A stretch of DNA of 64,000 nucleotides, taken from the IMG/VR virus record IMGVR_UViG_3300013121_000013, positions 1 to 64,000 of that record. One strand, given 5' to 3'. Below are positions 7,997 to 18,043 of the stretch, piece by piece. The stretch's first letter is position 1, and each line of letters begins with the position of its first letter. The DNA is from a virus (taxonomy: Duplodnaviria; Caudoviricetes). A model generated the notes under the pieces. It made no database searches, was not told the origin of the DNA, and saw only the letters and a program-made list of their open reading frames with translations. The position numbers and the translations under genes are program-made.

Positions 7997-8730
7997 CTCA
8001 TTAATAGCTTTATAAGCTCTGGCACAAAATTAAGAATTAGAGCAAATATGGACACAAGAGAGCCTATTACAAAAACTAGTGAGAGATTTTGAGACCATGT
8101 CATTCGGCTAATTCTATCTATAGCCCATTCTGGAACTATGCCAAAGAGCTTTCTATTACCGACATTTGGATCTCTTGCTATTTCGTCTAGCTCTATACCA
8201 CTTTCGTCTAGAAGTGCCATAGTGATAGCTACAGGAAATCCACCCATTTTATCTCTAGATCTTACTTTAGCTAATTCAGCTTCGGTCATTTTAATAACCT
8301 CTGCTGGCCACGGTATTCTTATGACAACGAGTCTTCCCTTTTTAGCCTCTCCATTTTTAACTTTCCAAATTTTCGACATTCTATAGTGAGATACTTCGCC
8401 GGTTATCAGTTTTTTAAAGTTTGTCTTGTCTAGCAACCTTTCTTCAGAAGAAGAGAAGTTATCAAATCTCATGAATTGAAGCTCAAGTTCGCTGTATCCG
8501 GTAAAGTCTTGAAATTCTGAGTTGGCTGATATCATATAGCCGTTTAAACAAACAAGACTCATAGGAATCGGCAAAATATGCATAAGCTTATAAAGAGTTG
8601 ACTCTTTCCAACTTTCTGGAGAGACTCTTCCGTCTAGAAGTGCCTTAATTAGATTTAATTCTTTTTCTTTAAACTCGTTTAAATTCTTATCTTTCAAAAC
8701 TTCTGATACGGGCAGCTTAGACAATGTCAT
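7993..8730 (-). CDS. PAS-domain protein with C-terminal transmembrane helix
   Basis: PIPMSLVCLNG...ANSEFQDFTGYSELEL...KNG PAS S-box pattern; hydrophobic C-terminus. Confidence 0.75.
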   Translation of the reverse strand: MTLSKLPVSEVLKDKNLNEFKEKELNLIKALLDGRVSPESWKESTLYKLMHILPIPMSLVCLNGYMISANSEFQDFTGYSELELQFMRFDNFSSSEERLLDKTNFKKLITGEVSHYRMSKIWKVKNGEAKKGRLVVIRIPWPAEVIKMTEAELAKVRSRDKMGGFPVAITMALLDESGIELDEIARDPNVGNRKLFGIVPEWAIDRISRMTWSQNLSLVFVIGSLVSIFALILNFVPELIKLLMR

Positions 8731-8911
8731 TTTGTCTTTTCTCCATCTATGTCGGAAATATATACGTGGATTATATTTAAGTATATACGCTGCCAGTTGT
8801 TTACGTAAATAGATATGCTAAATTTTCGACAAAAACACGTTATAATATAGTGCAAAAGCTCATAAGTATGAGAGTTGCCGTTTTTATATCTATTTAAAAT
8901 TGATTTTTCAC

Positions 8912-8940
8912 TTGAATTGTTTAAGTTACTTATGTAACAT
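8912..8940 (+). promoter_or_regulatory. Sigma70-like promoter for the tRNA/Y-RNA operon
   Basis: TTGAAT-17 bp-TAACAT, 10 nt upstream of the first RNA element. Confidence 0.55.
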
Positions 8941-8949
8941 CTTTGAATC

Positions 8950-9018
8950 ATAACTGACTGCAGCATTGGACTACATCACTTGTAAGGCGAATGTCTAATG
9001 CGAACCCTTGTCAGTTAT
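8950..9018 (+). ncRNA. Y-RNA-like element Y1 (minimal)
   Basis: ATAACTGAC/GTCAGTTAT outer stem, GCATTGGAC/GTCTAATGC inner stem, TACATC. Confidence 0.75.
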
Positions 9019-9023
9019 AATGT

Positions 9024-9147
9024 GTGAGGGTAGCTCAATGGGCAGAGCACAAAGAGTTCTCTCTGGATAATTTTCGTTGATGTCGTCAACTGCCATCTTG
9101 AGTACATCATAATCTTTAGGTTGTAGGTTCGAATCCTACCCCTCACA
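9024..9147 (+). ncRNA. tRNA(CAU)-like RNA with a circularly permuted Y module inserted in the anticodon loop
   Basis: GTGAGGG/CCCTCAC acceptor stem, normal D and T arms; insert TTTTCGTTGA-TGTCG-TCAACTGC...GAGTACATC. Confidence 0.75.
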
Positions 9148-9152
9148 CTTTT

Positions 9153-9226
9153 TGCAGAGTGGACTGGAGAGGCGCCAGCGCGGCTTCATACGCCGTACGA
9201 CACGGGTTCGATTCCCGTCTCTGCGA
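9153..9226 (+). tRNA. tRNA-Met(CAU)
   Basis: Cloverleaf; GCGGC-TTCATAC-GCCGT anticodon arm; weak 1:72 pair; no encoded CCA. Confidence 0.8.
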
Positions 9227-9227
9227 C

Positions 9228-9376
9228 TTACCAACTGTTTGATAAGAGTACATCAATTTGAATGGTTCGATTCCATTTTCCCCCTATATCTACTATCGGG
9301 GGAAAAGCCACAAGGCGTGGCACTTACCCTTCTGGGGTAAGAATTTATGGATCTCTTGTCTACTCTTCGTTGGTAA
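9228..9376 (+). ncRNA. Y-RNA-like element Y2, YrlA-type with a permuted tRNA cloverleaf
   Basis: TTACCAAC/GTTGGTAA and GATAAGAG/CTCTTGTC stems; T arm, loop-closed acceptor stem, D arm, anticodon-like arm. Confidence 0.8.
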
Positions 9377-9379
9377 CAT

Positions 9380-9436
9380 GGTAGCTCTCTTAGATTTAAA
9401 TAATCTAAGGAGATGACTTTCGAAGGTCAAGCTACC
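9380..9436 (+). ncRNA. Small three-way-junction RNA
   Basis: GGTAGCT/AGCTACC stem closing two hairpins. Confidence 0.5.
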
Positions 9437-9440
9437 CCTT

Positions 9441-9576
9441 CCTGACTGCTAGAATGGAGTACATCCCTTCGGAGGACGAAGAATCGGTGCAAATCCGATC
9501 CCTGCAACTTCAAAATTTATTGCAGGGTAGTGTAATAGATAGCACGCGAAAAATCTCTATTCATCCCCTTGTCAGG
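9441..9576 (+). ncRNA. Y-RNA-like element Y3, YrlA-type with a permuted tRNA(UCG)
   Basis: CCTGAC/GTCAGG and GAATGGAG/CTCTATTC stems; anticodon loop CTTCGGA, T arm, CCCTGCA/TGCAGGG acceptor, D arm. Confidence 0.8.
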
Positions 9577-9582
9577 TTAATT

Positions 9583-9655
9583 GGGCAGTTAGTTCAGCGG
9601 CAAGAGCGCCTCGTTTACACCGAGGATGTCACAGGTTCGAGTCCTGTACTGCCCA
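9583..9655 (+). tRNA. tRNA-Val(UAC)
   Basis: Canonical cloverleaf; CCTCG-TTTACAC-CGAGG. Confidence 0.95.
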
Positions 9656-9657
9656 CT

Positions 9658-9781
9658 TCCGACTGCTGTTTTTAGTACATCGTTCTGCCAGGTGTGGTAA
9701 CTAGCCCACTCCAAGCGACGCCAGCAATGGTGATGGCCCTTAAAGTCGTGTAACTAAGTCTAAAAACAAATCTTTGTCGGA
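9658..9781 (+). ncRNA. Y-RNA-like element Y4 with a ~78 nt non-tRNA insert
   Basis: TCCGAC/GTCGGA and TGTTTTTAG/CTAAAAACA stems, TACATC. Confidence 0.75.
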
Positions 9782-9793
9782 CGTGCGTATTTT

Positions 9794-9877
9794 CGGGGTG
9801 TAGACCGTAACTTGGTAGCGGGCCTGCTTTGGGAGCAGGTGGTATATCCCCTGTAGGTTCAAATCCTATCACCCCGA
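9794..9877 (+). tRNA. tRNA-Pro(UGG) with enlarged variable region
   Basis: CGGGGTG/CACCCCG acceptor; CCTGC-TTTGGGA-GCAGG. Confidence 0.9.
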
Positions 9878-9881
9878 CTTC

Positions 9882-9980
9882 GACAAATAGGCGAGAGTGT
9901 GGCTCGGAGCAGTAATGCGACGGGTGGCTGGGTTTGTAGCATCATAGTGCAATCTCCACAGTATGCACCGTCTGTTTGTC
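9882..9980 (+). ncRNA. Unassigned structured RNA
   Basis: 12-bp closing stem GACAAATAGGCG/CGTCTGTTTGTC with G-U pairs; internal TGTGG/CCACA. Confidence 0.55.
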
Positions 9981-9987
9981 TTATTAT

Positions 9988-10060
9988 GGGACCGTAGCTC
10001 AATGGTCAGAGCAAGGAACTCATAATTCCCAGGTTGTAGGTTCGAATCCTACCGGTCCCA
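9988..10060 (+). tRNA. tRNA-Ile2 or Met (CAU)
   Basis: GGGACCG/CGGTCCC acceptor; CTCATAA loop; Ile2-like body. Confidence 0.9.
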
Positions 10061-10086
10061 CTGTAGGATAACTAACCTATATTTTT

Positions 10087-10173
10087 GGAAGGGCAAGCCA
10101 ATTGGCGGTGGCCGCGCTCTTGAAAAGCGTTAGGGGTTAACGACCCGTGTGGGTTCGACTCCCACCTCTTCCG
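10087..10173 (+). tRNA. tRNA-Ser(UGA)
   Basis: GGAAGGG/CTCTTCC acceptor, CTTGAAA loop, long variable arm, G discriminator. Confidence 0.95.
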
Positions 10174-10180
10174 CTAAACT

Positions 10181-10249
10181 TGGGCTGGGGCAGGGATCTA
10201 GAAATAGAGCTGCTTGCCATTATCATAGGGCTCGTAACCCACCAGTCCG
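10181..10249 (+). ncRNA. Reduced tRNA-like RNA
   Basis: GGGCTGG/CCAGTCC stem, one long arm, T-loop-like GGG-CTCGTAA-CCC. Confidence 0.4.
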
Positions 10250-10252
10250 CTT

Positions 10253-10322
10253 TGCTAACTGTTGGTCCGGATTACATCAATCATTTTTAACCGTTGACAT
10301 CCGGATCGTCACCTCGTTAGCA
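10253..10322 (+). ncRNA. Y-RNA-like element Y5 (minimal)
   Basis: TGCTAAC/GTTAGCA and GGTCCGGAT/ATCCGGATC stems, TACATC. Confidence 0.75.
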
Positions 10323-10333
10323 TAATATTCTTA

Positions 10334-10432
10334 TCGGCGGTGCCTGGAAGGCTTCCTTGTAGAAATCTGCGAATAGTCAGCTGTGCTAGTCTGATTAGAG
10401 GTAAACAGGTTCGATTCCTGTTACATGTCCGA
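10334..10432 (+). ncRNA. Atypical tRNA-like RNA (canonical T arm, aberrant body)
   Basis: AACAGG-TTCGATT-CCTGTT plus three small hairpins; poor acceptor stem. Confidence 0.45.
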
Positions 10433-10434
10433 AT

Positions 10435-10507
10435 GCCGTTCTGGTGTAGCCGGTCTGCACGCCTGCCTGAAGAGCAGGAGGTTCTGGTTCGAACCCAGAG
10501 GACGGTA
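10435..10507 (+). tRNA. tRNA-Phe(GAA)
   Basis: GCCGTTC/GGACGGT acceptor; CCTGC-CTGAAGA-GCAGG. Confidence 0.9.
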
Positions 10508-10890
10508 CTTGTCCACCGGCAGTCCGAAGACTGCTGAGGCCGCCATGTGGGGGTCAGGTAGGGCAGCCATAGAATGTAGGTCCCCTAGCAGGGAGGATGT
10601 CATGAAATCGATGTTTAGCTTTATTATAGCCACGGGTGCGTGTGGCACCCTTTAATAATACCTCAGCTTTTGTGCTTGGCGGCACGAGGATGACTGAGGG
10701 TAGATTTAAATTTGTTAAGTAAGCTTCGTACTTGTCAGAACATTCAGATTCAGTGAGAATACCAATGTAAGATGTAAGATAAGTTTTAGAATTTTAGAAC
10801 CAGGAGATTAGGAGTTGAGCTCCCTAATGTAGCGCCTGGGCAGTGCGCTCAAGTCCGACTGCTTTCTAGTCGGATCTTACTTTTATATAC

Positions 10891-10963
10891 GGGTCTGTGG
10901 CGTAATTGGGAACGCGCTGGATTTGCACTCCGGAGTTGAGGGTTCGATTCCCTCCAGTATCCA
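10891..10963 (+). tRNA. tRNA-Ala(UGC) with a 1-nt acceptor bulge
   Basis: CTGGA-TTTGCAC-TCCGG; G3:U70 is kept if one T of CAGTATCC is bulged. Confidence 0.8.
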
Positions 10964-10967
10964 TTAA

Positions 10968-11027
10968 GCCGACTATCGAACGGTTTACACCATAATGCCA
11001 AAATAAACTGTTCAAATCTTCGTCGGC
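10968..11027 (+). ncRNA. Y-RNA-like element Y6 (minimal)
   Basis: GCCGAC/GTCGGC and GAACGGTTTA/TAAACTGTTC stems, TACACC. Confidence 0.75.
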
Positions 11028-11038
11028 CTAAATCATTT

Positions 11039-11300
11039 TTCAACTGCGGTCAGCGGAGTACACCTGAAAATAGAATTGTTCGGGAGTAGCTTCCCATAAA
11101 GAGCGCTAGCACGTAGGAATGCTCTTTATAAGCAGGCGATCCCTCGTAGCAGCCGGAGGTTAAACGGCGCAAGTAGGAGTTACTTTGAAACCCCCCTGGT
11201 AAAGCTTGGGTTAAATGTGATGCTCGTGGCGACGAGCCTAAACTATAATAAGTGTGGGTGTTCCACGCTTGTTACGCCTCTCCGGACCATTTTCGTTGAA
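11039..11300 (+). ncRNA. Y-RNA-like element Y7 with a ~210 nt structured insert
   Basis: TTCAAC/GTTGAA and GGTC(AG)CGGAG/CTCCGGACC stems, TACACC. Confidence 0.75.
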
Positions 11301-11314
11301 TCTATATTGGTCTA

Positions 11315-11484
11315 GATCGACTGCGGCAGACGGCATTCATCATGCCTAGCTGTTTAAGGAAGGTAATAGGAGAAAGTTCGCGGCCTCCTGGGCACGTCCT
11401 TTAGCCAAAAGAAATCCGCGCATGCCGATAGCCTCTCGGCTGTATGAGGCACCTTAACCCTTGCTGCTGCAACTTTCGTCGATC
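11315..11484 (+). ncRNA. Y-RNA-like element Y8 with a ~120 nt pseudoknotted insert
   Basis: GATCGAC/GTCGATC and GCAG(A)CGGCA/TGCTGCTGC stems, TTCATC. Confidence 0.7.
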
Positions 11485-11487
11485 AAC

Positions 11488-11531
11488 GGAGCCCTGAGGA
11501 TTGTCCTCAGGGCTCCTTGTTTCTTTTTTTT
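11488..11531 (+). terminator. Intrinsic terminator closing the ncRNA operon
   Basis: Perfect 13-bp stem GGAGCCCTGAGGA/TCCTCAGGGCTCC plus a T-rich tract. Confidence 0.85.
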
Positions 11532-11555
11532 CGTTTCTTAATAGGAGAAACTGCA

Positions 11556-13181
11556 ATGTCGAATCCTGATCTCTTTAGCAGCAAATCAGCCACTTCTTCT
11601 TTCGGGCTGAAACATCCTAAGACTGATACTGTGAATAACGCTGGAGGCGTTGCTTATAAATTTACACCGATGCATGCCCTTGCTCAGATGGTTGCGACCG
11701 GAGTGTTTCGTAACACGTATTACACTTCTGGTGCAGAGCAATTGAAGGCATTCATGGAAATTACCGAAGATAAGAAAAGTATCAGTGATGAAAGGCTGGC
11801 TAAGTTAGCGATCTGGGGGCGGCACAACGCTTATATGAAGGACACCCCTGCAGCTTGCGTTATGCGTCTGTTGTCTAGAAACAACATGGACTTGTTCCAT
11901 AAGGTTTTCGATAAAGTAATCGACAACGGTCGAATGCTCCGTAATGCATTTCAGATGTTGAGGTCTGGTGTATTTGGTAGGCGTAGCATGGGATATTCGG
12001 TTCAACGTGCTTTTCAGCGCTGGTTCAATGAGAAGCCAGTACACGTTCTTGTTGCTGGAAGCGTAGGCAACAATCCTAGCCTTAAGGACGTTCTACGTGC
12101 AGCAAGGCCGACTCCTAAAGATCAAGAGAGAGACGCTCTCTTCGGATGGCTTGCTGGCAAGGCCACTGACGCACAGGCACAGAACTTCCCACAAATGTTG
12201 AAAGATATTTTGGAGTTCAGAGCAAACAAAGAACCTAGTGCTCAAATTGAGGTTCTTAACAGGATGGGCGGGTTGCGTTGGGAAATGCTATCTGACGCGA
12301 TTGCTGGTCCAGAGGTGTGGAAGGTAATTATCGGGCATATGGGCCATCAAGCACTTCGTATGAATCTCAATACCCTCGATCGGCATGATGTATTTAAGTC
12401 CAAAGAGACAGTTAATTATGTAGCCAGCAGGCTGTCTGATGTTGAAGAAATCAAGAAGGCAAGGCAGTGGCCTATTCAGTACTTCAGCGCATATATGAAT
12501 GCCGATAATGTCCCTCATAAGATTCGTGAAGCTCTGTGTTCGGCTGCCGAAGTAGCTTGTGGTAATATTCCAGAGCTAGATGGCCCTCTAGTAATTGGCG
12601 TGGATACTTCTGGTTCTATGGGTTCTCCCATTACAGGCGTCCATGCTAAAGGAGGCGCATCGTCCAAAGTGACTTGTAGAGATGCCGCAGCCCTGTTTGC
12701 TGCGGCCCTGATTCGAAAGAATCCGGACTCTCTAGTTGTTCCTTTTGACGATAGGATTCACAAGATCAAGATCGATCCTGGAGATACTATTCTTAGTATT
12801 AGCAAATCCTTGTCTAGACTTGGAGGTGGCGGCACTTGCTGTCATCTACCGCTGCAGCATGCAAATAGTCTTAACAGGCCGTTTGCTGGTTGCGTCATGA
12901 TTTCTGACAATGAAAGCTGGATCGGCACTGGTCGATACGGGTCAACAGGCGTCATGTCGGAGTGGAATATCTTTGTTGATAGGCAGAAAAAGCTTGGTGT
13001 ATATCCAGCGCCAAAGCTTCTAAATATTGACATCGCTCCATATGCATCAACTCAGGCTGTTGATAGGGTTGATATCTTGAATGTTGGAGGATTTTCTGAC
13101 TCTGTCTTTAGCGTTATTTCTGGATGGATGTTCAATAAAGCTGGAACGTTTGTCGATCAGATCGAAGCTGTCCAGCTCTAA
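11556..13181 (+). CDS. rsr: Ro60/Rsr TROVE-domain RNA-binding protein with C-terminal vWA domain
   Basis: N-terminal NNAGGVAY, ALRMNLNTL, MIDAS DTSGSM, GGGT, SDNESW, VGGFSDSVF; AGGAG RBS supports ATG 11556. Confidence 0.92.
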   Translation: MSNPDLFSSKSATSSFGLKHPKTDTVNNAGGVAYKFTPMHALAQMVATGVFRNTYYTSGAEQLKAFMEITEDKKSISDERLAKLAIWGRHNAYMKDTPAACVMRLLSRNNMDLFHKVFDKVIDNGRMLRNAFQMLRSGVFGRRSMGYSVQRAFQRWFNEKPVHVLVAGSVGNNPSLKDVLRAARPTPKDQERDALFGWLAGKATDAQAQNFPQMLKDILEFRANKEPSAQIEVLNRMGGLRWEMLSDAIAGPEVWKVIIGHMGHQALRMNLNTLDRHDVFKSKETVNYVASRLSDVEEIKKARQWPIQYFSAYMNADNVPHKIREALCSAAEVACGNIPELDGPLVIGVDTSGSMGSPITGVHAKGGASSKVTCRDAAALFAAALIRKNPDSLVVPFDDRIHKIKIDPGDTILSISKSLSRLGGGGTCCHLPLQHANSLNRPFAGCVMISDNESWIGTGRYGSTGVMSEWNIFVDRQKKLGVYPAPKLLNIDIAPYASTQAVDRVDILNVGGFSDSVFSVISGWMFNKAGTFVDQIEAVQL

Positions 13182-13296: not shown

Positions 13297-14691
13297 ATGT
13301 CGCTAGAGGTAAAATACATGCAGCAAGTAATAGATAAGTTAATTGCTGGTCTATATCTTATAAAAAGAGGAGCTTCTCCAGAGCTATCATATGATATGCA
13401 TGGAGAGCTTTATTTAAGTAAGTCTGGATGGATTCTATTATCAGTTCCTAACTCTCTTGTTAGAGGATCATTTGATGCTCTTGGAGTTGTCGGAGCTGAA
13501 TTACCTCCAGGTCCTGATGGAAAGCTAAATGCGCATATTTCTGTTATTAGGCCAGAAGAACTTGAGCAGATAGGCGGCGCTGATAAAGTAACAGAAAGAG
13601 GAAAACAGTTTAAGTATAGGATTAAAAGCTTAAAAACTGTAGTTCCATCTAGTTGGCCTGAGATATCTAAAGTCTGGATGTTAGAAGTTCAATCGCCAGA
13701 ATTAGAAAATTTAAGAAAAAGTTATGGACTTTCAGCCAGGCCAAAAGATAACAAATACGAATTTCATATCACCATAGCGGTCAGAAGAAAACACGTCTTA
13801 AAAGAAAATGAAATAGTAAAAAAGAGTGGAGTAATAAAAGTGGCAAACTCAGATAACGCACCTTATAGGGAGCGCGCCGAGGTATTTGCTATTTCTCCTT
13901 CTAATAAAGTATTCGGAGCAATATGGGATAACGATAAGACATTTGCAATTCCTGGTGGAGGAATAGACCCAGGAGAAGATATTACAGAAGGGGCGCTTAG
14001 AGAGTTTAACGAAGAAACTGGATTAAAGATAAGAAATCCAAGATTAGCGCCTGATATAGAGCCAGTCGTGAATCTATGGCCTGAAGAATATAGGAAATCG
14101 GCACCTGAGGATAGAAAGCATTTTCTAGGCAGTAGAACACATTATGTCTTAGCTGATATCGACGATAACTTACTTGTAGATCCTTCTACCGACTACTGGG
14201 GTGCCAAAGACAAGCGCTATTACGATCTTGAAGAGGCTTTAAAGATTCATACTGGATCAGAAATTCCTCCAATGTCTAAACCTCATTGGGAGGTAAGAAA
14301 AAGAATTTTGGAAAATCTGCTTAAAGGCGTACAAAGTAAAAAAGCTGATAATACAACAGATGATGAAGTCTATAGAAATTCTCTTGAGGAGGCAGTAGAA
14401 CATGAATTAGAACACACAGATGACGAAGATATAGCAGAAGAAATAGCTAAAGACCATCTTAAAGAAGATCCAGAATATTATACAAATTTAGATAAGATGC
14501 ATGAATACGTTAATAATCTGGACGATGATTCTGAAGATGCTTTAAAAGACTCTATTGTCATAAAGCAGACAACTATGATTATTTCTTCAAAGAAAGGTAT
14601 TAAGCCTCCTAAAGAATTGGAAAAGATTTTCTCTAAGTCAGCGCCAGGGATACCAGAAGAGCTAGAAGAGTTATTTAACAGAGGTAGATAA
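13297..14691 (+). CDS. 2H-phosphoesterase + Nudix hydrolase + DUF5661-like fusion protein
   Basis: HISV and HITI 2H motifs; Nudix box GGGIDPGEDITEGALREFNEETG; ELEHTDD...IAKDHLKEDPEYY. Confidence 0.8.
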   Translation: MSLEVKYMQQVIDKLIAGLYLIKRGASPELSYDMHGELYLSKSGWILLSVPNSLVRGSFDALGVVGAELPPGPDGKLNAHISVIRPEELEQIGGADKVTERGKQFKYRIKSLKTVVPSSWPEISKVWMLEVQSPELENLRKSYGLSARPKDNKYEFHITIAVRRKHVLKENEIVKKSGVIKVANSDNAPYRERAEVFAISPSNKVFGAIWDNDKTFAIPGGGIDPGEDITEGALREFNEETGLKIRNPRLAPDIEPVVNLWPEEYRKSAPEDRKHFLGSRTHYVLADIDDNLLVDPSTDYWGAKDKRYYDLEEALKIHTGSEIPPMSKPHWEVRKRILENLLKGVQSKKADNTTDDEVYRNSLEEAVEHELEHTDDEDIAEEIAKDHLKEDPEYYTNLDKMHEYVNNLDDDSEDALKDSIVIKQTTMIISSKKGIKPPKELEKIFSKSAPGIPEELEELFNRGR

Positions 14692-16201: not shown

Positions 16202-18043
16202 ATGCAAAGTTTTAAACAGTACTGCTATATGCTTGGAAAATCGGCTGCTTGGTCGTTTAACTCTAAAGGTTGTGTAGGAAAGATTAAGCAAGCTGCTCAA
16301 CTTTATCGTGGTTTGAAGACTGACTATGTAGAACCAAACATTGATAATAAGCGGTATAATGAATTGATTACCAGCGCACTAGATGGCGGTTTATCTAGAA
16401 AAGCACAACACGAATTGCAAATGCTTGGGCGCAGACGCGAACAATTTTACACTGACCAAGAGAATGAGGCGCGACAATATGCTGGTCCTGGCGGTACTTT
16501 GGTGAAATTAAATCTTCCTGATGCTGGCCTATCTGAGTTTAGGTGGACATACAACAATCTCGGTAGGCCAAATCAGTTTTTAACTGGTGCAATAGACTCA
16601 GCGCGATTACAGCGGTTGTTGCAGCGTAGACGATGGTTGCAAAGCATTGAAAAGATAATAATACAACATAACGAGAAACAAGCTGCTAAAGGTATACCAG
16701 ATAGAAAAGATTACGGAGATTTATCAAATATTAATATTGGTCAATTAGTTGATTGGATAGTTCAAAAACACGACGCAGAGAGAGCGGGAACTCATTATGA
16801 CGTTCGGTTTGGAACTCCAGAATCTGGATTGTACTCATGGGCAGCTAGAAAAGGCTTACCTAAACCTGGAGAGAAAAACTTAGCCGTTCAACAACCTCTT
16901 CACTCTTATGATTATAAAGATTTTGAAGGCCGAATTGAGGAAGGCTACGGCAAAGGAAACGTCAAGAAGCAAGATTCAGGAGAGATTCTATTAACTGATG
17001 TTTCTCCTAATAAGATTAATTTTACTACCGGTTCTAAGAGATTCCCAGAGAGATTCTCTTTAGTAAGAACAGGCAAAGGTAAGAACTGGCTTTTATTAAA
17101 CACAACACCAACAAAATCAGTAGGTGTAGATAAGGTACATTATAAGGTAGTAGACGCTGATAAAGTTCAGCCTTTGATAGACGATCTATCAAAAGGCTCG
17201 TCTGTTCAGGCTAAGATAGATGGAGCCTCTTCTTTAATTAATCTAGTTAAAGATAAAGTTGAGCTTCTTTCATATAGACAAAACAAAGCTACTGGATATC
17301 CAATCTTTCATACTGAAAGGGCTTTTGGTGGAATACCCAAAGGAGTTCCTAAAGATTTAAATGACACTACCTTGAGAGGAGAGCTTTATGGATTAAAGAA
17401 TAATAAAGTCATTCCTCCAAGCGAGTTAGGTGGGCTCCTTAACTCTGGAGTAGCTAAAAGCTTAAAAGATCAGAAAGATCGAGGCATACAACTTAGAAAT
17501 ATGGTGTATGATATAGCTAAGTATAAAGGAAAAGAAATAGATGTAAATAAAATACCATACGAGCAACGAATGAAATATATAAAAGAAATACTTGATAAGA
17601 TTCCGCACGGAGATAGATTTGAAGTTGCCCAGGAAGCTAAGACTCCAGACGAAGCAAGATCTTTACTAGATAGCATTAGATCCGGGCAGCACCCTCAAAC
17701 TTCTGAAGGAATAGTTATTCATCCTCCTACTGGAAATCCTATTAAGTCTAAGCTCCTTGAAGAACAGGATGTTCATATAAGAGAATTCTTCCCAGGAAAA
17801 GGAAGGTTGCTAGATAAGGGTGTAGGTGGGTTTAAATATAGCTTAACTCCTACAGGGCCTATATTAGGAGAAGTAGGGACCGGGCTGACAGATGATATGC
17901 GAAGTCAGATGCATCAGGACCAAGGGTCTTTTATAGGCCGCCGAGCCAGGGTCAGATCACAAGGAGCGCTGCCTAGCGGTGCATTAAGGGCGCCGGCTTT
18001 AATATCTTTACATGAAGATTATCCTCTTATGCAAGGACAATAA
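16202..18043 (+). CDS. ATP-dependent DNA ligase fused to a LigD-type 3'-phosphoesterase domain
   Basis: VQKHDA..HYDVRF..SWAARKG..H..DY.DFEG.I..GYGKG (PE domain); KIDG, GELY, YDI, EGIV, VGTGL (ligase/OB fold). Confidence 0.88.
   Translation: MQSFKQYCYMLGKSAAWSFNSKGCVGKIKQAAQLYRGLKTDYVEPNIDNKRYNELITSALDGGLSRKAQHELQMLGRRREQFYTDQENEARQYAGPGGTLVKLNLPDAGLSEFRWTYNNLGRPNQFLTGAIDSARLQRLLQRRRWLQSIEKIIIQHNEKQAAKGIPDRKDYGDLSNINIGQLVDWIVQKHDAERAGTHYDVRFGTPESGLYSWAARKGLPKPGEKNLAVQQPLHSYDYKDFEGRIEEGYGKGNVKKQDSGEILLTDVSPNKINFTTGSKRFPERFSLVRTGKGKNWLLLNTTPTKSVGVDKVHYKVVDADKVQPLIDDLSKGSSVQAKIDGASSLINLVKDKVELLSYRQNKATGYPIFHTERAFGGIPKGVPKDLNDTTLRGELYGLKNNKVIPPSELGGLLNSGVAKSLKDQKDRGIQLRNMVYDIAKYKGKEIDVNKIPYEQRMKYIKEILDKIPHGDRFEVAQEAKTPDEARSLLDSIRSGQHPQTSEGIVIHPPTGNPIKSKLLEEQDVHIREFFPGKGRLLDKGVGGFKYSLTPTGPILGEVGTGLTDDMRSQMHQDQGSFIGRRARVRSQGALPSGALRAPALISLHEDYPLMQGQ
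17174..17192. promoter_or_regulatory. Palindromic motif copy 2 (TTGATAGA-CGA-TCTATCAA), intragenic
   Basis: Same 8-bp arms as the other copies, 3-nt spacer. Confidence 0.45.

What the first reader, a model, noticed from the sequence alone, without database searches (positions are those of the whole stretch)
9024..9147. Circularly permuted Y RNA: a tRNA(CAU) with the Ro module inserted in its anticodon loop
Seen: normal tRNA ends. The D arm and the AGGTTGTAGGTTCGAATCCTACC segment are nearly identical to the tRNA(CAU) at 9988. About 50 nt are inserted between AAAGA and TCATAA-TCTTT. The insert is the Y scaffold in reversed order: the 3' arm TTTTCGTTGA comes first, then a TGTCG loop, then the 5' arm TCAACTGC...GAGTACATC. 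The CAT anticodon is still present. Inference: a Y RNA with free, potentially aminoacylatable tRNA ends, or an intron-like insert whose removal restores a tRNA. It suggests how YrlA-type RNAs could arise from tRNAs.
Basis: partly seen in the sequence, partly recalled or inferred. Interest (0 to 1): 0.88.

Follow-up and report, generated by a model that had tools for sequence, protein, structure and literature searches.

The report
tRNA-shaped Y RNA beside phage Ro60
A phage that carries its own Ro60 RNA-quality-control protein encodes a 124-base RNA with the full body and free ends of a tRNA, and in place of a normal anticodon loop it carries a loop-closed copy of the Ro60-docking arm of Y RNAs, the reverse wiring of the known bacterial Y RNAs.

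Summary
9024-9147 is a full-length tRNA match (Rfam 50.3 bits) with a 57-nt "anticodon loop". The 50 extra bases carry both strands of the local Y-RNA stem in reversed order, closed by a 5-nt loop.

It lies 2.4 kb upstream of the phage Ro60 gene, on the same strand, in an array of ordinary tRNAs and canonical Y units.

It is a paralogue of tRNA(CAU) at 9988. Thirteen of 15 substitutions fall in the acceptor and anticodon stems, and every pair is kept.

Best reading (about 0.55): a Ro60-binding Y RNA in unpermuted tRNA topology, not an intron-bearing tRNA.
- There is no BHB motif, no EndA or RtcB gene, and no group I core.
- The phage already has two other CAU tRNAs and tRNA-Ile(UAU).

Caveats:
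- No orthologue was found.
- The inner stem is degenerate (7 of 11 positions pair).
- Energy folding prefers a competing hairpin.
- Binding is untested.

Apparent look-alikes in Planctomycetes are read-across artefacts of tandem canonical units. True tRNA-topology elements do occur upstream of Ro60 genes in at least ten other viral contigs.

This scan has already noted the same layout in other phages. I found no description of it in the papers I could search.

The parts
9024..9030 (+). acceptor stem, 5' strand (GUGAGGG)
   Evidence: Pairs 7/7 Watson-Crick with 9140-9146.
9033..9048 (+). D arm (GCUC-AAUGGGCA-GAGC), with A14, G18, G19 and A21 in place
   Evidence: Rfam tRNA alignment. Together with U8 and A9 it is 19/20 identical to the tRNA at 9988.
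9051..9055 (+). anticodon-stem 5' strand (AAAGA). One extra C (9050) precedes it.
   Evidence: Pairs 5/5 with 9113-9117.
9056..9066 (+). first strand of the Y 'inner stem' (GUUCUCUCUGG)
   Evidence: Read in register with 9093-9103, 7 of 11 positions pair, around a central 4x4 pyrimidine loop. Canonical units have 8-10 contiguous pairs.
9067..9075 (+). pyrimidine-rich 3'-strand bulge (AUAAUUUUC)
   Evidence: Same place and size as the 7-8-nt bulges of canonical units Y1, Y2, Y4 and Y6. It matches the ...CUUC-GUYG consensus of 223 foreign units.
9076..9090 (+). outer stem closed into a hairpin: GUUGA - UGUCG - UCAAC
   Evidence: 5 Watson-Crick pairs with a 5-nt cap, read from the sequence. Pair probability is only 0.14-0.17 in the energy ensemble. 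None of 347 other Planctomycete-type 5' arms is capped this way.
9086..9108 (+). Y-module 5' arm (UCAAC-UGCC-AUCUUGAG-UACAUC), the presumed Ro60-contact strand
   Evidence: nhmmer with a profile of 223 units from other genomes: E 0.036, third-best hit in the window. The consensus there is GCTCGACTGCCGGTTCGGAGTACATC.
9106..9112 (+). anticodon-loop remnant AUCAUAA (U33, CAU, A37). Its first three bases overlap the UACAUC motif.
   Evidence: UCAUAAU is identical to the loop of the tRNA at 9988.
9113..9117 (+). anticodon-stem 3' strand (UCUUU)
9118..9139 (+). variable loop AGGUU (U48 can pair with A15) and T arm GUAGG-UUCGAAU-CCUAC
   Evidence: Identical to 9988. Rfam alignment.
9140..9147 (+). 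acceptor 3' strand CCCUCAC plus discriminator A73. No CCA is encoded, and a 5-nt spacer leads to the next tRNA at 9153.
8950..9018 (+). canonical minimal Y unit (Y1), ending 5 nt upstream. RNase P cleavage at 9024 would free its 3' end.
   Evidence: MFE fold equals the scaffold, z = -3.45. It is the best 5'-arm profile hit. The processing step is inferred.
9988..10061 (+). ordinary tRNA(CAU), paralogue of the element's tRNA body
   Evidence: Rfam 73.8 bits. 58/73 identical, with 13 of 15 differences in the acceptor and anticodon stems.
11289..11299 (+). 3' arm of canonical unit Y7, sharing AUUUUCGUUGA with the insert. Y7's 5' arm at 11040 shares UCAACUGC.
   Evidence: An 11-mer match alone is near chance expectation. 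The match is suggestive only because it is in register with the scaffold.
11556..13181 (+). phage Ro60/Rsr gene, the presumed protein partner
   Evidence: Pfam TROVE plus vWA_Ro60. Best relatives are Planctomycetes Ro60 at 50-56% identity.

Best explanation
The element is a Y-RNA-type partner of the phage's Ro60 (Rsr) built in ordinary tRNA topology.

Proposed course of events:
- It is transcribed within the tRNA/Y-RNA array upstream of rsr.
- The host tRNA-end enzymes (RNase P and the 3' processing enzymes, probably followed by CCA addition) cut it out, because it has a perfect 7-bp acceptor stem, an intact D/T elbow and A73.
- Its anticodon arm is prolonged by a loop-closed copy of the lineage's Ro-docking helix: the outer stem, the UGCC strand facing a pyrimidine bulge, the inner stem and UACAUC.
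- Ro60 is inferred to bind this arm. The tRNA body then presents a tRNA elbow and a free acceptor end to some tRNA-binding factor. It also acts as a processing punctuation mark for its neighbours.

Shown here: the anatomy, the paralogy with the tRNA at 9988 under structural constraint, the module homology, the genomic association with rsr, and the recurrence of the layout in other phages.

Inferred: processing, Ro60 binding and the effector.

It most likely arose in this phage lineage from local parts, namely a tRNA(CAU) copy and arms like those of unit Y7.
For: 1. tRNA frame. Rfam tRNA scores 50.3 bits over model positions 1-71. All 26 pairs of the acceptor, D, anticodon, T and outer stems are Watson-Crick. 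U8, A14, G18, G19, A15 with U48, G53-C61 and UUCGAAU are all in place.
2. Constraint. Against its paralogue at 9988, 13 of 15 substitutions lie in the acceptor and anticodon stems (24 of 73 positions; Fisher p = 2e-6). Six pairs changed on both sides and none is broken. This is not neutral decay.
3. Module. The 5' arm is hit by a profile built from 223 foreign units (E 0.036, third best in 64 kb). The 3' strand has the ...UUC-GUYG junction, and the two arms are mutually complementary across a 5-nt cap.
4. Context. It lies 2.4 kb upstream of rsr on the same strand, inside the only cluster of this motif in the 155-kb genome.
5. Precedent.
   - ARAGORN calls with a 25-130-nt insert run 33 on the rsr strand against 1 on the other strand across 80 viral rsr loci.
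   - In at least ten viral contigs the acceptor stem pairs 7/7 within the element, so these are not read-across artefacts.
   - Eight are full-length Rfam tRNA matches of 115-125 nt at 39.6-52.6 bits, with no YrlA hit in those loci.
   - Acceptor pairs covary with none broken in 10 sequences.
   - Their inserts carry CUUG...CGRA...GGUUAUC in that order in 11 of 20 cases, against 0.09 in shuffles. That is the 3' strand then the 5' strand of the Y/sbRNA consensus shown.
6. Redundancy as a decoder. The phage has two other CAU tRNAs and tRNA-Ile(UAU), and this is its only tRNA call with an insert.
7. Published precedent for the end state. M. smegmatis YrlA is cut by RNase P and receives CCA (PMC4201824).
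Against: - No orthologue of this element was found, so there is no covariation for the insert itself.
- The inner stem pairs at only 7 of 11 positions. The outer stem is 5 bp, against 6-9 bp in the neighbouring canonical units.
- The scaffold-like fold scores -29.4 to -31.7 kcal/mol against an MFE of -37.9. A competing helix UGAUGU/ACAUCA has probability 0.81, and the anticodon stem has probability 0.002. The insert alone has z = -1.1.
- A sequence profile of the capped modules of other phages does not find this insert. Membership of that class therefore rests on architecture, not on demonstrated homology.
- Rfam YrlA (RF02553) does not match. It also misses the canonical Planctomycete units.
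- Ro60 binding, expression and processing are all untested.
Confidence: 0.55

Rival explanations
1. It is a by-product. A tRNA(CAU) copy was disrupted by recombination with Y-unit arms. It is kept only as a tRNA-shaped processing signal (RNase P/Z punctuation) in the polycistronic array, or not kept at all. The insert has no Ro60 function.
For: - The inner stem is degenerate, at 7 of 11 positions.
- The insert is not a favoured fold: z = -1.1, with a competing hairpin.
- It is the only capped unit among 348 Planctomycete-type 5' arms.
- No orthologue was found.
- There is short identity with the Y7 arms, as expected from a recent recombination.
- It sits 5 nt from a Y unit on one side and 5 nt from a tRNA on the other.
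Against: - The substitutions against the paralogue are concentrated in stems and all are compensated (p = 2e-6). At least the tRNA body is therefore under structural selection.
- The conserved single-stranded motifs of the module (UGCC, UACAUC, the U-rich bulge) and the outer stem are intact.
- The same layout arose or persists in many other Ro60 phages.
Confidence: 0.22
2. It is an intron-bearing tRNA(CAU). The 50-nt insert is excised and the halves are joined, possibly with help from the neighbouring 2H phosphoesterase/Nudix and 3'-phosphoesterase-ligase genes. The product is a working Met or Ile2 tRNA.
For: - Removing exactly 50 nt leaves a 7-nt loop AUCAUAA with U33, CAU and A37.
- End-healing and sealing domains are encoded 2-7 kb downstream.
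Against: - There is no bulge-helix-bulge motif at positions that would restore the loop.
- The record has no EndA or RtcB. Note that the record is 76% complete.
- 50 nt is far too short for a group I intron, and no intron or ribozyme family matches at E <= 10.
- The restored tRNA would have a purine at position 32 and an extra base at position 26.
- The phage already has two CAU tRNAs and tRNA-Ile(UAU).
- In the analogous elements of other phages, the 'anticodons' ARAGORN infers include AUG, AAU, AUC, AUU and AAG. On general knowledge, bacteria do not use these.
Confidence: 0.08
3. It is a tRNA-shaped RNA whose long arm adopts the alternative hairpin, with UGAUGU/ACAUCA and UCAA/UUGA stems and ACUGCC displayed in the loop. 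It works in some way unrelated to, or switching with, Ro60 docking.
For: This is the MFE and centroid fold, with pair probability 0.81.
Against: - A 6-bp complement within a ~60-nt stretch is not unlikely by chance (my estimate, not a computed result).
- The fold sequesters UACAUC, which is unpaired in every canonical unit.
- It abolishes the anticodon stem even though that stem shows three compensated changes.
- Energy models often miss tRNA folds.
Confidence: 0.1

Closest known systems
YrlA-type bacterial and phage Y RNAs (Chen et al. 2014, PMC4201824; Wang et al. 2018, bioRxiv 10.1101/312249; Rfam RF02553)
   Same: - It is encoded just upstream of Ro60 on the same strand.
- It is modular: a Ro-docking stem plus a tRNA-like domain with conserved D and T arms and tRNA tertiary nucleotides.
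- The docking stem emerges where the anticodon stem would be.
   Different: - The topology is inverted. In YrlA the T arm precedes the D arm, the acceptor-like stem is a closed loop and the RNA ends lie in the Ro stem. [quoted passage not shown] Here the acceptor stem is open and the Ro stem is closed.
- The element keeps its own 5-bp anticodon stem, its variable loop and a CAU loop remnant.
- The motif is RACUGCC...UACAUC, not GNCGAAN0-1G.
- RF02553 does not match.
[quoted passage not shown] 2014)
   Same: The end state has an open, tRNA-like acceptor end on an RNA that is bound by Rsr.
   Different: That RNA becomes two pieces, because both the Ro stem and the acceptor stem are open. The element here would be one piece with a capped Ro stem.
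tRNA-shaped Y RNAs upstream of Ro60 in other phages
   Same: - Full tRNA frame of 115-155 nt with a 7/7 acceptor stem.
- A 28-76-nt insert in the anticodon arm that carries the Ro-module strands in the order 3' strand, cap, 5' strand.
- Same strand as rsr, within 2.6 kb upstream.
   Different: - Their module is the classical type (AACUUG ... GNCGRA ... GGUUAUC).
- No sequence homology to this insert is detectable, so origin here is probably independent.
- Most of them fold into the module by MFE, and this one does not.
Intron-containing and permuted tRNA genes (archaeal BHB introns; the permuted tRNAs of algae cited in Wang et al. 2018)
   Same: A tRNA gene interrupted in the anticodon loop region.
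   Different: There is no BHB motif and no splicing endonuclease or RtcB gene. The insert sits at 31/32-33/34 rather than 37/38, and it is a recognisable protein-docking module.

Membership tests
YrlA-type Y RNA (Chen 2014; Rfam RF02553) | Encoded within about 4 kb of a Ro60 orthologue, on the same strand | tested here: met
   The element ends at 9147. rsr (TROVE plus vWA_Ro60) starts at 11556 on the + strand.
YrlA-type Y RNA (Chen 2014; Rfam RF02553) | Match to the curated covariance model RF02553 | tested here: not met
   No hit at the gathering score, or at E <= 10 in 8700-11700. The model also misses the canonical Planctomycete units.
YrlA-type Y RNA (Chen 2014; Rfam RF02553) | GNCGAAN0-1G motif in the 5' strand of the Ro stem | tested here: not met
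   The strand reads UCAACUGCCAUCUUGAG. It fits the Planctomycete-lineage variant (consensus ...CGACUGCCGGUUCGGAGUACAUC; profile hit at E 0.036), not the literal motif.
YrlA-type Y RNA (Chen 2014; Rfam RF02553) | tRNA-like domain with D and T arms and tRNA tertiary nucleotides | tested here: met
   Rfam tRNA 50.3 bits. U8, A14, G18, G19, A15 with U48, G53-C61 and UUCGAAU were read directly.
YrlA-type Y RNA (Chen 2014; Rfam RF02553) | Permuted order (T arm 5' of D arm), closed acceptor-like stem, RNA ends in the Ro stem | tested here: not met
   The order is acceptor, D, Ro module (capped), T, acceptor. This is the inverse arrangement.
YrlA-type Y RNA (Chen 2014; Rfam RF02553) | Bound by Ro60/Rsr | not testable with these tools
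   Needs EMSA or co-immunoprecipitation.
tRNA (Rfam RF00005) | Cloverleaf with a 7-bp acceptor stem, D arm and T arm | tested here: met
   All pairs are Watson-Crick.
tRNA (Rfam RF00005) | 7-nt anticodon loop on a 5-bp stem, and a single base at position 26 | tested here: not met
   57 nt lie between the stem strands, and there is an extra C at 9050.
tRNA (Rfam RF00005) | Aminoacylation and decoding | not testable with these tools
   Needs an acid-gel or charging assay.
Intron-bearing tRNA (BHB or group I) | Bulge-helix-bulge motif placing both cuts so that a 7-nt loop is restored | tested here: not met
   An exhaustive scan of the 124 nt found only four weak motifs with 2-bp flanking helices, all at unusable positions.
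Intron-bearing tRNA (BHB or group I) | Splicing endonuclease (PF01974) or RtcB ligase (PF01139) available in the genome | tested here: not met
   No match in the 155,646-nt record, while the controls gave matches. The record is 76% complete, and the host genome was not searched.
Intron-bearing tRNA (BHB or group I) | Self-splicing intron core | tested here: not met
   The insert is 50 nt. No intron or ribozyme family matches at E <= 10.
tRNA-shaped (unpermuted) Y RNAs beside phage Ro60 (seen in this scan; not found in print) | Full-length tRNA match of about 115-155 nt, self-complementary acceptor stem, upstream of rsr on its strand | tested here: met
.
tRNA-shaped (unpermuted) Y RNAs beside phage Ro60 (seen in this scan; not found in print) | Insert carries the Ro-module strands in the order 3' strand, cap, 5' strand | tested here: met
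   Direct reading and the 5'-arm profile hit.
tRNA-shaped (unpermuted) Y RNAs beside phage Ro60 (seen in this scan; not found in print) | Sequence homology of the insert to other members | tested here: not met
   nhmmer with a profile of 15 other inserts gives no hit at 9050-9118 even at E <= 100.

The most novel reading that the evidence does not exclude
This RNA catches the birth of a Y RNA from a working tRNA. A tRNA(CAU) copy acquired a capped Ro60-docking hairpin in its anticodon loop while keeping an acceptor end that can be processed, CCA-tailed and perhaps charged.

If so, tRNA-like Y RNAs can arise by module insertion, with permutation coming later through tandem duplication, and need not arise from dimeric tRNA transcripts. 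In addition, some phage Ro60 particles would carry a tRNA end able to engage CCA-adding enzyme, synthetases, EF-Tu or tRNA-repair enzymes.
Probability: 0.2. Interest if true: 0.85.

Novelty: new variant of a known kind. Interest (0 to 1): 0.62.

Why it matters
Bacterial Y RNAs of the YrlA type are described as circularly permuted tRNA mimics with a closed acceptor stem and no anticodon loop. Their proposed origin is a dimeric tRNA transcript (Wang et al. 2018, citing Sim and Wolin 2018).

An unpermuted form, with a real tRNA frame, open ends and the Ro60 site closed into the anticodon arm, gives a simpler route from tRNA to Y RNA. It also makes several questions directly testable: whether such Y RNAs receive CCA, whether they are charged, and which tRNA-binding factor they bring to Ro60.

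This instance is useful for three reasons:
- Its parent-like tRNA lies 840 nt away.
- Canonical Y units and genuine tRNAs lie in the same transcript-sized array.
- A compact set of RNA end-healing and ligase genes follows the Ro60 gene.

It also carries a practical lesson. tRNA finders run with intron options produce false 'intron tRNAs' across tandem YrlA units.

Tried and rejected
1. Planctomycetes 'tRNAs with 44-105-nt introns containing the motif' (L088, L092, L112, L151 and others) looked like homologues. Reading L088 and testing acceptor pairing showed them to be read-across of two tandem canonical units. Self-pairing was mostly 4-6 of 7, while pairing with their own neighbouring partner strands was 6-7 of 7. 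Rfam's tRNA model makes the same false call at L092 (36.9 bits).
2. Searches for an orthologue all failed.
   - GenBank phages by blastn gave only ordinary tRNA matches.
   - IMG/VR by the Rsr protein gave nothing close.
   - The exact pattern TTCGTYGR-N3-8-YCRACTG-N8-14-TACATC in IMG/VR gave 36 hits, none in a tRNA-like context and most read as coding sequence.
   - A longer pattern including the T loop, run against metagenome contigs, gave 0 hits.
3. A capped hairpin among other Planctomycete-type units: 0 of 347. Six short-spacer candidates were read by eye and all were canonical.
4. A profile of the 3' arm from foreign units is too weak (0.5 bit per position) and does not find the insert's 3' arm.
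5. A profile of the capped inserts of other phages does not find this insert.
6. MAFFT plus RNAalifold on the inserts of the class recovered only the acceptor, D and T helices. I therefore have no formal covariation for the Ro hairpin of the class.
7. Encoded CCA is uninformative. None of the 19 tRNA-shaped elements encodes it, but only 7 of 39 ordinary tRNAs in those loci do.
8. The sigma-70 promoter scan found nothing above the shuffle level upstream of the array.
9. The two Wolin-lab reviews (PMC6047535, PMC10870794) are not held, so I could not check them for a mention of unpermuted forms.

Full report
**What is there**

The window is the first 64 kb of a 155,646-nt IMG/VR virus record. 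Between a leftward gene ending at 8730 and a Ro60/Rsr gene at 11556-13181 lies a 2.6-kb non-coding array. The Rsr gene carries Pfam TROVE and vWA_Ro60 domains. Its best relatives are Planctomycetes Ro60 at 50-56% identity.

The array holds seven ordinary tRNAs and a series of units sharing one scaffold:
- an outer stem ending in RAC;
- UG(C) on the 5' strand, facing a 7-8-nt pyrimidine-rich bulge on the 3' strand;
- an 8-10-bp inner stem;
- the motif UACAUC, followed by a variable head.

Four of these canonical units fold into exactly this shape by minimum free energy (MFE), with z-scores from -1.9 to -5.6. A strong terminator closes the array at 11488-11516.

**The element**

9024-9147 matches Rfam's tRNA model over all 71 positions at 50.3 bits, with 57 nt where the 7-nt anticodon loop belongs. 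ARAGORN finds it only when introns are allowed: tRNA-Met(cat) with a 50-nt insert at position 33.

Read directly, it has these parts:
- a 7-bp acceptor stem and A73;
- a D arm with A14, G18, G19 and A21;
- one extra C after position 26;
- a 5-bp anticodon stem AAAGA/UCUUU;
- the variable loop AGGUU, whose U48 can pair with A15;
- a T arm with UUCGAAU.

Between the anticodon-stem strands the order is GUUCUCUCUGG, AUAAUUUUC, GUUGA, UGUCG, UCAAC, UGCC, AUCUUGAG, UACAUC, AUAA. This is the 3' arm of the scaffold, a 5-nt cap, then the 5' arm.

**Is the module match more than chance?**

I collected 80 Planctomycetes rsr loci and 80 viral rsr loci. The motif RACUGCC...GGA.UACAUC is present upstream of rsr in nearly all Planctomycetes loci.

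From 223 distinct units of other genomes I built profiles of the two arms. The 5'-arm profile (consensus GCTCGACTGCCGGTTCGGAGTACATC) hits 9086-9108 at E = 0.036 over the whole window. That ranks third, after two canonical units. The 3'-arm profile carries too little information to find anything reliably.

The module is a lineage variant of the classical Y/stem-bulge RNA helix. The Rfam alignment shows that consensus as ...GGUCCGGAG...GGGUUAUC on the 5' strand and ...CAACUUGACC on the 3' strand.

**Relation to the tRNA at 9988**

With the insert and the extra C removed, the element is 58/73 identical to tRNA(CAU) at 9988. Of the 15 substitutions, 13 lie in the acceptor and anticodon stems, which make up 24 of the 73 positions (Fisher p = 2e-6). 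Six pairs differ on both sides and no pair is broken. The D arm, T arm, variable loop and the UCAUAAU of the anticodon loop are almost unchanged.

This is not the pattern of a decaying pseudogene. The tRNA body has been kept as a structure while its two identity-bearing stems were replaced.

**A trap**

ARAGORN with introns found dozens of 'tRNAs with 40-100-nt inserts' on the rsr strand in both sets of loci. In Planctomycetes they even showed the same order of parts as the window element.

Reading L088 showed what they are. Each is the D arm and 3' arm of one canonical unit, read together with the 5' arm and T arm of the next. The canonical units are permuted, in the order T arm, closed acceptor-like stem, D arm.

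In these calls the 'acceptor' strands pair mostly at only 4-6 of 7 positions with each other, but at 6-7 of 7 with their own partners next door. Rfam's tRNA model makes the same false call (L092, 36.9 bits).

The window element is not such an artefact:
- The unit upstream (8950-9018) is complete in itself.
- The gene 5 nt downstream is a tRNA.
- The acceptor stem is 7/7 Watson-Crick.
- The two arms are joined by only 5 nt.

Among 348 Planctomycete-type 5' arms in my loci, it is the only one capped in this way.

**True relatives in layout**

In at least ten viral contigs with more distant Rsr genes, ARAGORN's calls have 7/7 acceptor stems that differ from element to element. These are L017, L031, L039, L047, L052, L058, L060, L064, L077 and L082.
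- Eight are full-length Rfam tRNA matches of 115-125 nt at 39.6-52.6 bits. Those loci have no YrlA hit at all.
- In an alignment of ten such RNAs, including the window element, every acceptor pair is kept in every sequence, with many double changes.
- Most fold by MFE into acceptor, D arm, a long irregular hairpin and T arm.
- Their inserts carry CUUG, then CGRA, then GGUUAUC in 11 of 20 cases, against 0.09 in shuffles. That is the 3' strand followed by the 5' strand of the classical Ro helix.
- Across the 80 viral loci, insert-bearing calls run 33 to 1 in favour of the rsr strand.

The layout 'tRNA frame with a capped Ro arm' is therefore a recurrent partner of phage Ro60 genes. Earlier notes of this scan report it in several other phage genomes. 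I reached it independently before that look-up.

A sequence profile of those inserts does not detect the window's insert. I therefore treat the window element as an independent construction from local parts. Consistent with that, its bulge and outer stem (AUUUUCGUUGA) and UCAACUGC recur in the arms of canonical unit Y7 at 11289 and 11040. That match is suggestive only.

**Why not an intron?**

- No bulge-helix-bulge motif is placed so that excision restores a 7-nt loop.
- The record has no tRNA-splicing endonuclease and no RtcB, while the control genomes gave matches.
- Fifty nucleotides cannot hold a group I core, and no intron or ribozyme family matches at E <= 10.
- The phage has 24 ordinary tRNAs, including two other CAU tRNAs and tRNA-Ile(UAU). 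This is its only insert-bearing call.
- A restored tRNA would have A32 and an extra base at position 26.
- In the analogous RNAs of other phages, the inferred 'anticodons' are often ones that bacteria do not use, such as AUG, AAU, AUC and AUU (the usage rule is general knowledge).

**Weak points**

- There is no orthologue, so there is no covariation for the insert itself.
- The inner stem, read in register with the scaffold, pairs at only 7 of 11 positions around a 4x4 pyrimidine loop.
- The outer stem is 5 bp.
- In the energy model the scaffold fold scores -29.4 to -31.7 kcal/mol against an MFE of -37.9. The MFE contains a competing helix, UGAUGU/ACAUCA, at probability 0.81.
- The insert alone is no better than shuffles (z = -1.1).

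Nearest-neighbour models often miss tRNA folds, and they ignore bound protein. Still, this is real evidence that the module here is weaker than its neighbours.

**Mechanism proposed**

Shown here:
- a structurally constrained tRNA frame;
- a recognisable Ro-module in capped, reversed order;
- linkage to rsr;
- recurrence of the design.

Inferred:
- The array is transcribed as one precursor. M. smegmatis YrlA and YrlB are processed from a single precursor.
- RNase P and the 3'-end enzymes release the element and its neighbours, and CCA is added. RNase P-cleaved M. smegmatis YrlA receives CCA.
- Rsr docks on the prolonged anticodon arm.
- The exposed elbow and acceptor end recruit a tRNA-binding factor.

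The genes just downstream encode a 2H phosphoesterase-Nudix fusion and a LigD-type 3'-phosphoesterase fused to an ATP-dependent ligase. A role in tRNA damage or repair during infection is therefore plausible but untested.

**Comparison with the literature**

Chen et al. 2014 and Wang et al. 2018 describe YrlA as a permuted tRNA mimic with a closed acceptor stem and no anticodon loop. They discuss an origin from dimeric tRNA transcripts. The 2025 study of Thermus phage phiLo Ro60 describes only stem-bulge-stem Y-like RNAs.

I found no description of the unpermuted layout in the papers I could search. Two reviews were not available.

**Verdict**

The element is a new variant of a known kind, already seen by this scan in other phages. 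Here it is built from a different, Planctomycete-type module, and its parent-like tRNA lies beside it.

Noticed in passing
L083-L162 (for example L088:2960-3990): Planctomycetes rsr genes are preceded by tandem arrays of 2-6 Y units, both minimal and tRNA-like. They share the 5'-arm consensus GCTCGACTGCCGGTTCGGAGTACATC and the 3' junction ...CUUC-GUCG, and large tRNA arrays often lie further upstream. Rfam RF02553 (YrlA) hits none of them at its gathering score.
   Followed up: partly
L088:3544-3686, L092:3533-3679 and similar: ARAGORN -i, and also Rfam's tRNA model (36.9 bits), call false 'intron-bearing tRNAs' that span two adjacent canonical YrlA-like units. This is a systematic annotation artefact in tandem Y-RNA arrays.
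   Followed up: yes
L039:4613-4696: Between two tRNA-shaped Y RNAs lies an 84-nt RNA that weakly matches Rfam RF01656, a nematode sRNA family (25.8 bits, E 0.0034, below its gathering score). From memory, these nematode stem-bulge RNAs are regarded as Y-RNA homologues. This phage therefore mixes a classical minimal Y RNA with tRNA-shaped ones.
   Followed up: partly
window 13297-14691 and 16202-18043: Downstream of rsr there are two multi-domain proteins. One is a 2H phosphoesterase + Nudix + DUF5661 fusion. The other is a 613-aa protein with a LigD 3'-phosphoesterase domain and an ATP-dependent ligase domain. Together they look like an end-healing and sealing set next to Ro60, with no RtcB in the record.
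   Followed up: partly
window 9879-9987: About 110 nt between tRNA-Pro and tRNA(CAU) match no tRNA, no Y scaffold and no Rfam family at E <= 10.
   Followed up: no
window 9078-9109: The cap loop and part of the outer stem (UGAUGU) are perfectly complementary to ACAUCA, which overlaps the conserved UACAUC motif. This gives a competing hairpin that dominates the predicted ensemble. It could be chance or a switch.
   Followed up: partly
G000 121154-148739 (outside the window): The phage carries 17 further tRNAs in three clusters, including Ile(UAU), four Leu isoacceptors and two Gln. None of them has an insert, and no further Y-motif cluster exists outside 8950-11320.
   Followed up: partly
L058:3931-4703: One viral contig has four tRNA-shaped Y RNAs in a row just upstream of its rsr, each with a different acceptor stem. 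About 20 ordinary tRNAs lie downstream of rsr.
   Followed up: partly
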